From Octopus vulgaris (taxonomy: Eukaryota): a DNA stretch of 64,000 bases. Below, one piece after another: positions 2,907 through 36,134 of the stretch. The stretch covers positions 186,001-250,000 of the forward strand of contig OX597823.1 in assembly GCA_951406725.2 (NCBI GenBank), given 5' to 3'. A program made the translations under genes and the position numbers. Under the pieces are notes generated by a model. It saw nothing but the letters and a program-made list of their open reading frames with translations, did not search any database and was not told where the DNA came from. The stretch's first letter is position 1. Every line of letters starts with the position of its first letter.

Positions 2907-5124
2907 AAAACAAACAAGGAACTGCTTTCAAAATATATCGTACAGAATACATTAAGTGTCATTGTAGGGCCCAGTGCCCAATGAAGAGCCTGCCACAGGA
3001 GCGAGCTAAAAAGCCACCCTATTGGGCAGCTTTTGAGATAGTAATAGAAATAAAACGAACAAGGAACTGCTTTCAAAATATATCGTACAGAATACATTAA
3101 GTGTCATTGTAGGGCCCAGTGCCCAATGAAGAGCCTGCCACAGGAGCGAGCTAAAAAGCCACCCTATTGGGCAGCTTTTGAGATAGTAATAGAAATAAAA
3201 CGAACAAGGAACTGCTTTCAAAATATATCGTACAGAATACATTAAGTGTCATTGTAGGGCCCAGTGCCCAATGAAGAGCCTGCCACAGGAGCGAGCTAAA
3301 AAGCCACCCTATTGGGCAGCTTTTGAGATAGTAATAGAAATAAAACGAACAAGGAACTGCTTTCAAAATATATCGTACAGAATACATTAAGTGTCATTGT
3401 AGGGCCCAGTGCCCAATGAAGAGCCTGCCACAGGAGCGAGCTAAAAAGCCACCCTATTGGGCAGCTTTTGAGATAGTAATAGAAATAAAACGAACAAGGA
3501 ACTGCTTTCAAAATATATCGTACAGAATACATTAAGTGTCATTGTAGGGCCCAGTGCCCAATGAAGAGCCTGCCACAGGAGCGAGCTAAAAAGCCACCCT
3601 ATTGGGCAGCTTTTGAGATAGTAATAGAAATAAAACGAACAAGGAACTGCTTTCAAAATATATCGTACAGAATACATTAAGTGTCATTGTAGGGCCCAGT
3701 GCCCAATGAAGAGCCTGCCACAGGAGCGAGCTAAAAAGCCACCCTATTGGGCAGCTTTTGAGATAGTAATAGAAATAAAACAAACAAGGAACTGCTTTCA
3801 AAATATATCGTACAGAATACATTAAGTGTCATTGTAGGGCCCAGTGCCCAATGAAGAGCCTGCCACAGGAGCGAGCTAAAAAGCCACCCTATTGGGCAGC
3901 TTTTGAGATAGTAATAGAAATAAAACGAACAAGGAACTGCTTTCAAAATATATTGTACAGAATACATTAAGTGTCATTGTAGGGCCCAGTGCCCAATGAA
4001 GAGCCTGCCACAGGAGCGAGCTAAAAAGCCACCCTATTGGGCAGCTTTTGAGATAGTAATAGAAATAAAACGAACAAGGAACTGCTTTCAAAATATATCG
4101 TACAGAATACATGAAGTGTCATTGTAGGGCCCAGTGCCCAATGAAGAGCCTGCCACAGGAGCGAGCTAAAAAGCCACCCTATTGGGCAGCTTTTGAGATA
4201 GTAATAGAAATAAAACGAACAAGGAACTGCTTTCAAAATATATCGTACAGAATACATTAAGTGTCATTGTAGGGCCCAGTGCCCAATGAAGAGCCTGCCA
4301 CAGGAGCGAGCTAAAAAGCCACCCTATTGGGCAGCTTTTGAGATAGTAATAGAAATAAAACGAACAAGGAACTGCTTTCAAAATATATCGTACAGAATAC
4401 ATTAAGTGTCATTGTAGGGCCCAGTGCCCAATGAAGAGCCTGCCACAGGAGCGAGCTAAAAAGCCACCCTATTGGGCAGCTTTTGAGATAGTAATAGAAA
4501 TAAAACGAACAAGGAACTGCTTTCAAAATATATCGTACAGAATACATTAAGTGTCATTGTAGGGCCCAGTGCCCAATGAAGAGCCTGCCACAGGAGCGAG
4601 CTAAAAAGCCACCCTATTGGGCAGCTTTTGAGATAGTAATAGAAATAAAACGAACAAGGAACTGCTTTCAAAATATATTGTACAGAATACATTAAGTGTC
4701 ATTGTAGGGCCCAGTGCCCAATGAAGAGCCTGCCACAGGAGCGAGCTAAAAAGCCACCCTATTGGGCAGCTTTTGAGATAGTAATAGAAATAAAACGAAC
4801 AAGGAACTGCTTTCAAAATATATCGTACAGAATACATTAAGTGTCATTGTAGGGCCCAGTGCCCAATGAAGAGCCTGCCACAGGAGCGAGCTAAAAAGCC
4901 ACCCTATTGGGCAGCTTTTGAGATAGTAATAGAAATAAAACGAACAAGGAACTGCTTTCAAAATATATCGTACAGAATACATTAAGTGTCATTGTAGGGC
5001 CCAGTGCCCAATGAAGAGCCTGCCACAGGAGCGAGCTAAAAAGCCACCCTATTGGGCAGCTTTTGAGATAGTAATAGAAATAAAACGAACAAGGAACTGC
5101 TTTCAAAATATATCGGTACAGAAT
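2907..5124. repeat. Intronic tandem array, about 15.2 copies of a 145-bp unit
   Basis: Exact 145-nt periodicity, also visible as repeated 78-aa ORFs offset by 145. Only a handful of substitutions between units. Confidence 0.99.
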
Positions 5125-24400: not shown

Positions 24401-26070
24401 ATCATCATCATCATCATTATCGTTTAACGTCCGTTTTCCGCGCTAGCACAGGTTGGACGGTTCGACCGGGGTCTGGGAAGCCAGGGGCTGCTCCAGGCTC
24501 CAGTCTGATCTGGCAGAGTTTCTACGGCTGGATGCCCTTCCTAACGCCAACCACTCCGTGAGTGTAGTGGGTGCTTTTTACGTGCCACCTGCACAGGTGC
24601 CAGGGGGGGTCCGGCATCGGTCACGATCGGTTGGAGCTTTTAACGTGCCAGCGGCACGGAAGCCAGCCAACGTTCGGATGGTCTTTTTATGTGCCACCGG
24701 CACAGGAGCCAGTCGGGGTGGCGCTGACATCAGCCCGGGTCTTTGCAGTCACAGCATATCTCCTGAGTGTCTGTGGTATCTATTGTCCCTGTGCATCTGC
24801 CGCACATGAAAGCTATCTTATCTGTTAATTTCCCTTTAATGTTGCTGCACCTCTTGTGCGCCCATAGCTTACATTGGGTGCATTTTATGGAGTTTCTACC
24901 TACACCTTTCCTACAGATCGAGCAGGGCCACCTGCCCGAGGGGGTGTGTGCTGAGTTCGCCTTTCTGCTTACTATAACTTTGGTCTTTGCTACATTTACT
25001 CTAAGGCCCTTTGATTCTAACCCTTGCTTCCACACGCGAAATTTCTTTTCTAGTTCCGGTAGTGATTCTGCTATGAGAGCCAGGTCATCAGCATAGAGGA
25101 GCTCCCAAGGGCATCCTGTTTTGAATTCCTCTGTTATTGCCTGGAGGACTATGATGAATAAAAGGGGACTGAGGGCTAAGCCTTGGTGCACACCTACTTC
25201 TACCCGGAATTCTTCACTATATTCGTTGCCAATCCTAACCTTGCTGACAGCCTCTCTGTATAGAGCCTGTACAGCCCTTATTAGCCATTCGTCAATCTCC
25301 AGTTTCCGCATCGACCACCAGATAAGGGAATGGGGAACCCTATCAAAGGCTTTCTCCAAGTCCACAAAAACTATGTAGAGGGGTTTATCTTTAGCTAGGT
25401 ACTTCTCCTGCAGTTGTCGGACCAGGAATATAGCATCAGTGGTGCTTCTACCCGGCACAAAACCGAACTGCATTTCATCTAAGCAAATTCTCTCCCTAAT
25501 GAGATGGGTTATAACCCTCTCTGTGACCTTCATCACCTGATCCAACAGTTTGATACCCCTGTAGTTATTTCTATCTAGAGCATCACCCTTACCCTTGTAG
25601 CAGTTAACTATGGTGCTGCTACGCCAGTCATTGGGTATGACTCCATTATGAACTACCTGGTTTACAATGTGGGTGACTAGGCCATAGCCCACATAGCCAG
25701 CTATTTTAAGCATCTCAGCAGTGATTCCTGATGGGCCGGGGGCTTTACCCGGTTTCATATCCTTAATTGCCTTAACTACAAGGGAGCTGTCTATTCGGGT
25801 AGCTGGTCCCTCTACTGGGTCAACATTTGGCAGGCTCTCCTCCTCCCATTCATTCAGCAGTCTTTCATAATGTCTTCTCCAAGCCTCTTTCTTTTCACTA
25901 ACAGTAAAAGCAAGTGCCCCATCATCCATGCGGACACATTTCTCTCCTGTAACATCACTATTTTCTCTGACACACTGTCTGGCAATCCGAAATACCTCAG
26001 CTCTTTGGTCCTCACGTCGCTGGACATTGGCAAACTTCTTTTCTGCTACATCTTTGGCTATGTATACCTG

Positions 26071-31278: not shown

Positions 31279-31326
31279 ATACATACATACAAAACTTGGA
31301 GAACAGAAAGGGCTAGTTCAACGAGT

Positions 31327-31388
31327 CGTGTTCTGTCCTCACCTTCGAAACACGCATGGAGTCGAACCGGGGACAGCTGATGAAGGGG
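31327..31388 (+). ncRNA. Hammerhead-ribozyme-like motif with non-canonical strand connectivity
   Basis: CUGAUGA 31377-83, GAAA 31347-50 and GUU 31330-32. Stem I CUGUCCUC/GGGGACAG, stem III CGUGU/ACACG and stem II CUUC/GGGG all lie in catalytic register. Activity untested. Confidence 0.5.
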
Positions 31389-31789
31389 AATTTTCCTTGT
31401 GTTGTTTGTCTTGTACTCTGTTTTTTCGTTGTTAAAAAAAAGGTCCGTTTCCATGTTTGTTTTTACGTTTTCGTTTCTCGTTGAGTTCTACGTCTATTTG
31501 TGGTGTCCTGTACTCACGTATATATATTTATATATGCATGTATATATACATGTAGATGTAGGTATGTACATATATGTATGTATGTATGCATATATTTTAT
31601 TTATTAAATTATATATATATCTATATATACATGCAGGGTGTCCATAAAGTCTTTTCACAATTTAAGAGATGTATTACAAAGACAATTGATAAGATATCTT
31701 AATTAGACTTGTTCTATTGTACTCAGTGGTTTTTGAAGTGGATTCTATTTGTCACGTTGCCCGCAGACAGCTTTTATCGTGAAGAGAAA

Positions 31790-33191: not shown

Positions 33192-34860
33192 TATTTCTTT
33201 ATTACCCACCAGGGGCTACGAAGAATGGCGGACATAACAAAACATGGGGGACATAGAACAATATGATTAAATTCATGAGCAAATGAAAATGAAAAAATGA
33301 TAATATGAAAGCGATGCTAACGGCCCCCTCCGCCAGCATCACTTACCTGTCCTTTTGTTTTCACTGTCACCTGAATGTTCATTCCCAATACGAAGACCAT
33401 CCATATCCATTCTTACTCCGAAACTGTCCTCCATATATTCCACAAATTCATCGCTCATTCTTGTATCTTTCACCTCCCAATTCTCCCTTTCACACCTCAA
33501 CACAAACTCATCTATATTCTTCTTTTCCAGCACTGCATATCTGGTCCCATCCATTTCATACCATTCATACTCCTCCATTACCCTTTCAACCTCTTTCTGT
33601 TCAGTCACAATATAAATGTTCGGCCTGGGTTCGTTTTCAAACTCTTGTCTGTCTGTATTATTATTTTTCTTTTGTTTTCTTGTTGGAGGGGAGCGGGTGG
33701 GTTCACTGTCTGCAGGGGAAGGGTGGGATTCAGAGGGTGCGGGTGGTGTTGGGGTGGGTTGGGGCTTCGCACAGTTTTTCTTTTTCTCTTTTTTCTTCCT
33801 TCTTCCCACTCTTGTTGCATCTCCTCTTCTTCTGTCGTTTCTTTTTCCATTTGGTTCTCTTTGGTTTCTTCCTCTTTTGGGGCTTCCGCGACGATTTCCT
33901 TTTCTTTTTCCTTTGGTGGGGGAGGGCAGTAGGCTCTTATGTGACCCCTCAGGCCACACTTGTAGCACCTGGGCGCCCTACCCTCCACCCACACTCTCAT
34001 AATAATATTTCCAGTTTTTATACTGTCCGTAAGCTTTTCTATAACTTCCGCCTCCGTCTGTATGTTCATTACTAGTGTGGCACCTCTCACGCCTTCATAT
34101 TTCATAATGGCGTGGAGGATGTCCACTTTATCTTCATTTCCTTTGATAACCGCAGCCGTTATTAATTCGCCCTCTAGGTGTGGAGGTATTCCTTCCACCC
34201 TAATTCTGGTGGTCCTTCTATTCAAATACGAAGGGAACAAGTAAAACTTTTCTGTACTCACCACCTTGGCTGCTATATTCCTGGCTGCTTTCTCCCTTTT
34301 AAATTGTACCGTTATGGTTCCATATTCTAATCCTTTTGTCATGTACACAATTTCTTCTCCTGTCTGTTTGAAAGCCTCTTCAATTGCTTCCATGTTAATC
34401 ACTTCCATTTTTCTACCTCCATTCATAAATACTTTATATTTAATGGTTCTACGATAGAACCAGTCTCCGCGCCCTGCTAGAGGCAACAGCTCAACCTCTC
34501 CGTTCTCCTCCTCCTTCATGAACTCCTGGAAGTCCGTCAACTTAGCCAGGTCTATCTCTTTTTCTGTTGACTTCTTCGTTATACCTGCGTAGGTGCTTTC
34601 CATTTTTTTCACCGCCAACTCCTTCTCAGATGTCGACGAATTTTCAGAGAAATTTCTCCCTTCCATCTCATCCGTTTGGTAGAGGCGGCTCATAGTCGCC
34701 TCAGACCGAAAAACGGCCTCCCGAACAGAAAACGTGCGACGCACAGAACCAGTGCGACGCGAAACCGCACCAACCGACGTTCCAATTCCGCAACCACAAT
34801 TCACTTTTTGTTCTTTTTTCTTTTTTAACCGAATTTTACTGAGCGCAAAAAAACGCGACC
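33192..34860 (-). mobile_element. ORF1-only non-LTR element encoding a Tx1/L1-type gag-like CCHC protein (ATG 34693 to stop 33605; overlapping -1 frame open to 33339)
   Basis: CpG-rich 5' UTR; VEGRAPRCYKCGLRGHIRAYC zinc knuckle; no endonuclease or RT; short 3' UTR ending gcccctggtgggtaataaagaaata. Confidence 0.75.
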
Positions 34861-36134
34861 TTTTTTCTCTACATTGTATACTTTATAGACAATAGTCTTT
34901 TCTTTAATTTAATTTTTTATTATCCATCTGGACTATTCCATTTCTGCATGCTAATTTTATTTTTAATTTATTCCCATTCATGTGAAACCACTTATTCAAG
35001 TTCAAGTCATTGATGCAATTTTATACCAATTGCTATTTTTACTTTTTTTATGTTATGATTATATTATACTTTAGTTTGATTTTAATTATTACTTACTACA
35101 TATAATTCAATTGTTATTACTATTTTTATTGTTAAAGTGAAAGTATCTGACATAAAATAGAGAAATGTTTTTGTTTCACTTTTAACTGAAATAGTGGAGA
35201 AGATATGATATTGCTATGGGCTCGCTCTAGGCAAGAAGTTGAACAATTTTTTTGCCCATGAAACTACATGGACCCTAAGTAAGGCATGTGTAAAATTTGA
35301 ATGAAATTGGTTGTGTAGTTCTCAAGTTTTAGGGATTCACACAGACAGACAGACAGACGGACACACATTCTCAGTTTTATATATATAAAGATTAGTGGAA
35401 CGATAATATTCTGATAAAATGTCGACATCATAAAATGAATTTCTCACTCTGTTCTCCTTGTGAATATATAATCTCTATAAATGTTAACAGTCCATCAGCA
35501 AAGCAATCCATTTCTGTTTTATAATAGTATCTGATAGCTGATACCCATGGATAGGCTTAGTAAAGCAAAGTCCAAACAGAATTTATATATATACACATAT
35601 ACATGCATGCAAGTAGTCATTAGTTTGAGATAAGAAAAAAAAGAAAAGAGTAACTAACTAATAGATGGGACTTGAACTTTATACCTGTTGCTTGCCAGGC
35701 AACTGTGTTACTAATTGATTACACTGTCGGAGTATGATTTCCCTTCTTTCCAAAATTAAGTACATATGTTCAAAACCTCTACCCATGACCACTTGCAGAT
35801 TCATCTGACCAATCTAGTACACATCCCACTTTTCATTCTCAGCAATAACTAATGGCCAAGGGTAAAAAATTTCACATTGATATTTTAGTTTTCTATCTTG
35901 GGATTCACATGGACAACATTGATTTACTTTGATTTACAATAAGTCTTTGAGGTTAATTCTTTCCCTAATAGTTTGAAGTTGATTATTGTTGAAACATTAA
36001 ATCAAAATATAACAAGTTAGACATTACTTGAAATAACTTCATCTCTGAGTATAATGTGTTCATAAAATTACCAGTGACACACAAGAGACATGCTTATAGA
36101 AAGCTTATTTGAGAACCAATAAAAGGGTTAAATC

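What the first reader, a model, noticed from the sequence alone, without database searches (positions are those of the whole stretch)
31327..31388. Complete hammerhead core with strands linked in a non-canonical order
Seen: every conserved hammerhead core nucleotide is present and each stem abuts the core in exact register. The order is CGUGU-U (31327-32, stem III' plus H17), CUGUCC(UC) (stem I'), a 2-4 nt linker, CUUC (stem II'), GAAA-CACG (stem III), a 14-16 nt linker, (GG)GGACAG (stem I), CUGAUGA, then A-GGGG (stem II). Established: types I, II and III are circular permutations of the order [CUGANGA]->[GAAA]->[UH], and stems I and II lie side by side in the active fold. Here the order is [UH]->[GAAA]->[CUGAUGA], which is none of those permutations. 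Inference: the distal end of stem I is tethered covalently to the distal end of stem II, replacing the usual loop-loop contact, and standard descriptors would miss it. I do not know of a description of this topology. Caveats: GUU is a weak triplet, stem II has two G-U pairs, and CCUUC/GAAGG (31342-46/31382-86) is a competing pairing. It sits in a ~230-bp repeat-like block antisense to the host gene.
Basis: partly seen in the sequence, partly recalled or inferred. Interest (0 to 1): 0.85.

Follow-up and report, generated by a model that had tools for sequence, protein, structure and literature searches.

The report
Split-core hammerhead in retrotransposon tails
This stretch is a slightly damaged copy of a likely self-cutting hammerhead RNA that many unrelated jumping genes carry near their tail, in a strand order not found in the papers searched (its catalytic core is predicted to be built from two separate strands), and it could explain why one large group of these jumping genes seemed to lack a ribozyme.

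Summary
The hammerhead letters and stems I and III are there as described, in the order UH, GAAA, CUGAUGA. That order is known (type SGC, Eckert 2023). A fourth helix, often kink-turned, closes the fold. The core is thus opened between A9 and G10.1, outside the six published orders. The copy belongs to a non-coding ~800-bp tandem family (over 1,600 exact core matches). The same fold, with all stems covarying, lies in 3' UTRs of Naiad Penelope-like elements and of restriction-endonuclease-type retrotransposons from other organisms (26 of 45 loci). Insertion 5' ends pile up just 3' of the predicted cut in the tandem families (35 of 99) but not in a single-copy family (0 of 49). Cleavage is untested; a dimer is inferred. 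This copy has A in place of G10.1. The scan noted a CSG hammerhead and a Naiad twister elsewhere, not this form.

The parts
31304..31611 (+). 5'-truncated copy of a non-coding tandem repeat family (unit about 800 bp, here called F1), ending in a TA microsatellite; ends approximate
   Evidence: (40 of 3130 candidates scored, 95-98% identical apart from self)
31307..31311 (+). upstream strand of stem II (10.1-10.5); AAAGG here, GAAGG in the family, so G10.1 is lost in this copy
31313..31322 (+). 5' strand of fourth helix P0 (equivalent of the 'I' helix of type SGC); two mismatches in this copy
31323..31324 (+). GA of a predicted kink-turn between P0 and stem III
   Evidence: pattern met in F1 copies L010, L269
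31327..31332 (+). stem III strand 16.5-16.1 and U17; predicted cut 3' of 31332 (GUU)
   Evidence: covariation; 5'-end pile-up
31333..31339 (+). stem I strand 1.1-1.7
31342..31354 (+). stem II strand CCUUC (C11.1 = 31346), G12-A13-A14, stem III strand ACACG
31356..31360 (+). 3-nt bulge AUG and GA of the predicted kink-turn
31361..31370 (+). 3' strand of P0, abutting stem I with no linker
31371..31383 (+). stem I strand GGACAG and CUGAUGA; the backbone leaves the core after A9

Best explanation
The stretch is one decayed copy of a conserved hammerhead fold, shared by several retroelement families, whose stem II is formed with a strand upstream of the cleavage site, so that the core is predicted to be opened between A9 and G10.1, and which likely cuts the element's RNA after GUU. 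Strand order: II-5', P0, III/UH/I, II-3'/GAAA/III, P0', I/CUGAUGA. This is a further rotation of the S-G-C cycle (types SGC, CSG). P0 plus stem III form a hairpin whose loop holds the cut site; the two flanking tails carry G10.1 and CUGAUGA. Inferred (about 55%): the tails cannot reach their own loop, so the tails of one copy complete the loop of a second copy, as in a tandem transcript. Inferred: in this ~800-nt non-coding tandem family the cut makes unit-length RNA, which a Penelope-like reverse transcriptase copies in trans from internal TA-like priming sites; copying often stops at the cut 5' end, and uncut or re-ligated RNA gives the longer-than-unit copies. Shown: letters, covariation, context, 5'-end pile-up. 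Not shown: cleavage, dimer, circles, the partner element. This copy (A at 10.1, two P0 mismatches) is probably slow or dead.
For: Upstream stem II: Watson-Crick run of 5 or more in 86 of 119 unique cores, shuffled mean 5.2, max 14; strand after CUGAUGA 0 of 119 at 4 or more. 22 non-redundant motifs with every stem varying in sequence; own upstream strand fits at 5 or more in 15 of 22 against 5% of 420 swaps. Full descriptor: 172 of 395 cores in 1.46 Mb of loci, 0 in five shuffles. In metagenome loci of restriction-endonuclease-type retrotransposons 26 of 45 with enough 3' room carry the core; all 13 descriptor hits were on the sense strand; placed by pairing alone, U16.1 in 21 of 22, H17 never G, G10.1 upstream in 19 of 22. 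Same fold at the 3' end of Naiad_Obim and Naiad_Ovul and six other Naiad records, type CSG in five more (read by eye). 5' ends of copies picked by a downstream pattern: F2 23 of 57 and F1 12 of 42 lie in the 17 nt from G12 to the cut, against 1 and 2 in the next 17 nt (p 4e-5, 0.02); six F2 copies start at the cut. Kink-turn pattern in 7 of 22, shuffled mean 0.5. Linker between stem III and P0 is 0 nt on one strand in 4 of 22.
Against: No cleavage data. The single-copy family F3 shows no pile-up (0 of 49) although its motif is intact, so the cut is not evident there, and a cut in a 3' UTR would sever the template from the ORF. The window copy fails the descriptor. 74 of the 119 cores share one stem II sequence and are not independent; 68 of 119 can form 4 or more pairs after CUGAUGA if G-U is allowed. 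The loose descriptor still passes 190 of 860 upstream-only shuffles. The 17-nt window was fixed after seeing F2; three inverted pairs are counted as two copies each; junctions are uncertain by 2-3 nt next to TA repeats. Minimum-energy folds do not give the proposed fold, as expected for pseudoknots but no support. No autonomous partner was found.
Confidence: 0.68

Rival explanations
1. Same split fold, but it cleaves as a monomer: the kink-turn or bulge folds P0 back along stems III and II so one molecule closes its own core.
For: Kink-turn pattern in 7 of 22 motifs; F1 has 4- and 6-nt linkers and a 10-bp P0; published SGC and CSG RNAs cleaved during transcription; the motif is kept in single-copy 3' UTRs.
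Against: P0 abuts stems I and II with 0-1 nt in 18 of 22 on each side (partly favoured by the scoring) and continues stem III with 0 nt on one strand in 4 of 22; Eckert et al. note the same ends are far apart in the crystal structure; no pile-up in single-copy F3. No 3D model was built.
Confidence: 0.3
2. The fold is a hammerhead-derived structural signal (binding site for the element's protein, or a stall site for reverse transcriptase) that cleaves rarely or not at all.
For: Position about 100-330 nt from the 3' end of the elements; F3 0 of 49; minimal hammerheads of Penelope-like elements cleave weakly in vitro.
Against: Catalytic letters, U16.1 and non-G H17 are kept across unrelated elements; the pile-up has a sharp edge at the cut and lies in the hairpin loop, not at its 3' base (F2 rate 2.9 per 100 bases against 0.75 downstream and 0.11 upstream).
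Confidence: 0.17
3. Ordinary type-SGC hammerhead with an extra A after CUGAUGA and stem II GGGG/CUUC.
For: Possible with G-U pairs in 64 of 74 CCUUC cores; an extra base between A9 and G10.1 is common; it is the only G-C closed stem II in the window copy.
Against: 0 of 119 reach four Watson-Crick pairs; 14 of 22 non-redundant motifs give 0-1 pairs after CUGAUGA; weaker by 4.7 kcal/mol and competed by a downstream hairpin.
Confidence: 0.07
4. Chance arrangement amplified by a repeat.
For: Isolated fold z 0.28; no Rfam hit.
Against: Covariation in 22 non-redundant motifs from different element classes and organisms; zero hits in shuffles.
Confidence: 0.01

Closest known systems
Type-SGC and type-CSG hammerhead ribozymes (Eckert et al. 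2023, PMC10085705)
   Same: Order S, G, C; short linker between distal stems I and II; extra helix joining the other strands of stems I and II; very short link from that helix to stem III in some members.
   Different: Block C is interrupted: stem II's 5' strand lies upstream of the cleavage site. [quoted passage not shown] Here thousands of copies lie in an animal genome, in retroelements.
Minimal hammerheads of Penelope-like elements (Cervera and de la Pena 2014, PMC4209133)
   Same: Retroelement repeat context, tandem and inverted copies, proposed dimeric action, flexible position between A9 and G10.1.
   Different: Those are type I (C-G-S order) with a weak stem III; here stem III is 4-7 bp or longer and the order is non-circular.
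Non-LTR retrozymes (Cervera and de la Pena 2020, PMC7229834; Li et al. 2026 preprint 10.64898/2026.07.22.740005)
   Same: Non-coding tandem repeats with one hammerhead per unit, tied to Penelope-like elements.
   Different: Unit about 800 bp against 150-450 bp; hammerhead not type I; circular RNA not shown here.
Naiad Penelope-like elements (Craig et al. 2021, PMC8557442)
   Same: (TA)n targets, partial tandems, inverted 5'-truncated copies; the G000 Naiad 3' end carries the same fold.
   Different: The paper reports no canonical hammerhead and only 'half cores'. The window's family has no ORF and no sequence link to a Naiad was found.

Membership tests
Hammerhead ribozyme | CUGANGA, GAAA and UH present with stems I and III in register | tested here: met
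Hammerhead ribozyme | G10.1-C11.1 closing stem II | tested here: met
   family: upstream G in 19 of 22 placed without demanding it; the window copy itself has A
Hammerhead ribozyme | A9 linked to 10.1 directly or through 1-2 bases | tested here: not met
   stem II partner lies upstream
Hammerhead ribozyme | Mg2+-dependent cleavage 3' of H17 | not testable with these tools
   indirect only: 5'-end pile-up in F1 and F2, none in F3
Type-SGC hammerhead | 5'-to-3' order S, G, C | tested here: met
   definition
Type-SGC hammerhead | Uninterrupted block C; published descriptors need CUGAUGAG or CUGAUGAUG followed by stem II | tested here: not met
Type-SGC hammerhead | Helix joining the free strands of stems I and II | tested here: met
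   P0, covarying, but its stem II side lies 5' of the motif
Non-LTR retrozyme | Tandem non-coding unit of 150-450 bp with a type I hammerhead | tested here: not met
   unit about 800 bp, order not type I
Non-LTR retrozyme | Abundant linear and circular unit RNA | tested here: inconclusive
   only contigs, none on record as RNA
Penelope-like element (non-autonomous) | Partial tandems, inverted 5'-truncated copies, (TA)n targets | tested here: met
Penelope-like element (non-autonomous) | Terminal repeat shared with an RT/GIY-YIG element | tested here: inconclusive
   no shared sense-strand end in 30 + 20 GIY-YIG loci or 25 Naiad-like loci; only part of the candidates was examined
Hero clade of non-LTR retrotransposons (label recalled, from no call) | RT followed by CCHC knuckle and restriction-like endonuclease, placed by an RT tree | tested here: inconclusive
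   RVT_1 hit in L155, zf-RVT/RVT_1 look-alikes, motifs seen by eye; no tree. Applies to F3 and L365-L436, not to the window copy
Kink-turn | C helix, 3-nt bulge, tandem G.A/A.G, NC helix | tested here: met
   7 of 22 motifs (one with a 4-nt bulge), shuffled mean 0.54, max 3; fold not tested

The most novel reading that the evidence does not exclude
A seventh hammerhead topology: the catalytic core is split between A9 and G10.1, the RNA is a kink-turned hairpin with the cut site in its loop and the catalytic strands as tails, and it cuts only when two copies dock. It is the missing ribozyme of Naiads (with type CSG in other Naiads) and a standard part of the 3' UTR of a clade of non-LTR retrotransposons, acting as a sensor of tandem or paired transcripts.
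Probability: 0.45. Interest if true: 0.92.

Novelty: new variant of a known kind. Interest (0 to 1): 0.82.

Why it matters
The published scheme of six hammerhead orders assumes the CUGANGA-stem II block cannot be broken; this family breaks it, so every descriptor misses it. Non-circular hammerheads were known almost only from environmental sequence; here they sit in thousands of copies in an animal genome and in two retroelement classes. Craig et al. left open why Naiads lack hammerheads and listed unexplained 'half cores'; these resolve into complete non-circular ribozymes. A ribozyme in a 3' UTR is unexpected for non-LTR elements. All of it is testable with 90-nt transcripts, and a hammerhead that needs a second copy would be a useful engineering part.

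Tried and rejected
Rfam at gathering and E-value thresholds: no ribozyme. Minimum-energy and cofold predictions: cannot show pseudoknots, gave other folds. Search for an autonomous partner: GIY-YIG search (30 loci plus 20 widened regions of 150 matches), Naiad protein search (5 loci plus 20 regions of 150), interior pattern (30 of 557): none joins an ORF to the F1/F2 end; the young 781-aa element L310 has an unrelated tail. First metagenome scan with the F3 protein found nothing. PDB search of the F3 ORF: nothing. Sequencing runs: no RNA holder listed, contigs only, no information on ends or expression. MAFFT alignment of 17 motifs did not hold the stems in register, so no tool-based pair count was made; counts come from core-anchored scripts. 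First F1 5'-end mapping was faulty (references held the upstream tandem copy) and was redone. Loci L001-L030 and L121-L150 were not used for end statistics because their queries bias the ends. Literature: searches found no description of this topology or of non-circular hammerheads in retrotransposons; subscription papers, Repbase/Dfam notes and bioRxiv supplements were not visible. Earlier scan notes: nothing by sequence, place or the specific words.

Full report
Observation. Stem III (CGUGU/ACACG) and stem I (CUGUCC/GGACAG) abut the core in register, the triplet is GUU, and the order is cleavage site, GAAA, CUGAUGA. Rfam has no ribozyme match and the isolated 86 nt fold no better than shuffles (z 0.28).

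The order is known. Eckert et al. 2023 (PMC10085705; I read parts 1-6 of 8 of the text, supplement parts 1 and 8 and one supplement search) divide the hammerhead into blocks S, G and C, call this order type SGC, and show cleavage. [quoted passage not shown] The window copy matches neither published SGC descriptor string.

The carrier. The stretch lies in a 5'-truncated copy (31304 to about 31611) of a repeat with 3130 candidate places in the 2.8-Gb G000 (40 scored, 95-98% identical). The unit is about 800 bp, non-coding, found as partial tandems and head-to-head inversions in TA microsatellites, with 3' ends at two internal TA-like sites. Exact core patterns give 1,680 and 217 matches against 0 in reversed controls; looser ones give 2,053 against 135 and 213 against 50 and reveal unrelated families. 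F2 changes stems I and III in compensating pairs. F3 and two other families follow the end of an ORF with RT, CCHC and restriction-like endonuclease features; 'Hero-like' is my recalled label. Another family matches the 3' end of Naiad_Obim and Naiad_Ovul in the supplement of Craig et al. 2021, so the genome is likely an octopus.

Stem II is upstream. Comparing families showed that what follows CUGAUGA does not pair with the strand before GAAA, whereas a strand about 20-30 nt upstream of the cut does and begins with G: GAAGG/CCUUC, GGGGCC/GGCCCC, GACACC/GGUGUC, GGACA/UGUCC and others. Among 119 unique cores with stems I and III of 4 bp or more (137 before removing duplicates), 86 have an upstream Watson-Crick run of 5 or more (shuffled mean 5.2, max 14); none has 4 after CUGAUGA, although 68 reach 4 with G-U, 64 of them CCUUC cores. 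These cores are not independent (74 share CCUUC), so I reduced 132 full-descriptor hits to 22 non-redundant motifs: every stem position beyond the core varies and stays paired, own upstream strands fit at 5 or more in 15 of 22 against 5% of 420 swaps (G at 10.1 and UH were demanded there). A fourth helix P0 starts 0-1 nt after the upstream strand and ends 0-1 nt before stem I in 18 of 22 on each side. The full descriptor hits 172 of 395 cores in 1.46 Mb of loci and none in five shuffles, but 190 of 860 upstream-only shuffles still pass, so its upstream part is loose. The fold equals type SGC closed into a ring and reopened between A9 and G10.1, the position known to tolerate an extra base.

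It is widespread. A metagenome scan with the C-terminal protein of one F3-type element gave 72 loci; 27 were too short and were dropped, 26 of the other 45 carry CGAAA...CUGANGA downstream of the match, and five of the 19 negatives show decayed copies by eye. All 13 descriptor hits were on the sense strand, none in five shuffles. With the site placed by pairing alone, 21 of 22 unique motifs have U16.1, none has G17, and 19 have G at the upstream 10.1. In the Naiad supplement (by eye; 60 of 62 'ctgatga', 15 of 30 'ccgaaac', 15 of 17 'tcgaaac' places seen) eight records show the split form (three near-identical, one of these with a stem II mismatch, one record with only 2 bp of stem I) and five show complete type CSG; apart from the two octopus records I did not see their names. 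The paper (passages and section 6) reports no canonical hammerhead in Naiads and marks Naiad_Ovul 'HHR_half_core'. Between stem III and P0, 7 of 22 motifs, F1 included, fit a kink-turn (shuffled mean 0.54, max 3).

Does it cut? Copies were chosen by a pattern downstream of CUGAUGA, so their 5' ends are unbiased: F2 70 of 858 places, F1 50 of 686, F3 50 of 916, taken from the head of the lists with four neighbouring or already held places skipped. Among copies reaching G12, 23 of 57 (F2) and 12 of 42 (F1) end within 0 to -16 (the cut is at -14), against 1 and 2 in the next 17 nt (p 4e-5 and 0.02); six F2 copies start at -14 to -16. F3 has 0 of 49 (Fisher p 7e-8 against F1+F2). The edge at the cut and the position in the hairpin loop favour a real RNA 5' end over stalling. 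The window was set on F2 data, inverted pairs count twice, and another reverse transcriptase may serve F3. RNA runs gave nothing usable.

Mechanism. Shown: the fold and its context. Inferred: stem III and P0 make a rod, bent at most by a kink-turn or a 3-6 nt bulge (0 nt on the other strand in 4 of 22), while P0's far end sits directly on the distal ends of stems I and II, which point away from stem III in the active fold. Closing that ring in one molecule looks strained, so I favour the tails of one copy completing the loop of another (about 55%); no 3D model was built. That would fit cutting in tandem F1/F2 transcripts and silence in single-copy F3, and echoes the dimeric hammerheads of Penelope-like elements and retrozymes (PMC4209133 parts 1-2; PMC7229834 passages; the 2026 preprint abstract and passages). 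What a rarely used cut does in a Hero-like 3' UTR is unexplained; after cutting, both pieces would stay paired through III, P0 and II, so it may act as a nick.

This copy. Against family copies it has A at 31307 (G10.1), A at 31320 and CG at 31368-69; it fails the descriptor. It is most likely a passive insertion; the interest lies in the family.

Verdict. Hammerhead class and SGC order are known; the split core, the kink-turn and the presence in Naiad and non-LTR 3' UTRs were not found in nine literature searches (PMC13725137 passages). New variant of a known kind, interest 0.82, cleavage untested.

Noticed in passing
Supplement of PMC8557442, records near Naiad_Hcon: Five Naiad records carry complete type-CSG hammerheads, a form published from only two sequences.
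   Followed up: partly
L310:1745-4090 and about 5060-5105: Young Penelope-like element with an intact 781-aa RT/GIY-YIG ORF in many copies; its tail holds a canonical-order core variant UUGAUAA...GAAAC...GUU (U3/A8 type), seen by eye.
   Followed up: partly
L328:1608: Canonical-order minimal type I hammerhead-like motif near a GIY-YIG match.
   Followed up: no
L004:1055-1225: F1 unit holds an intron-like stretch (GTAAGT, pyrimidine tract, CAG), as in 5' UTRs of Penelope-like elements.
   Followed up: no
L171/L172, L265/L266, L271/L272, L031, L063: Head-to-head inverted copies whose junction lies within about 40 nt of the predicted cut.
   Followed up: partly
window 2907-5124: 145-bp tandem array, 15.3 copies, 99% matches.
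   Followed up: no
window 24730-26070 (-): 446-aa frame of a LINE-type reverse transcriptase with a weak PHD-like C-terminal hit.
   Followed up: partly
window 33605-34882 (-): 425-aa frame with a CCHC knuckle-like motif, gag-like, no Pfam hit.
   Followed up: partly
L128, L129, L147, L192-L202: At least two further non-coding TA-inserted families with the split hammerhead and unrelated stems; L129 is a tandem of about 630 bp.
   Followed up: partly
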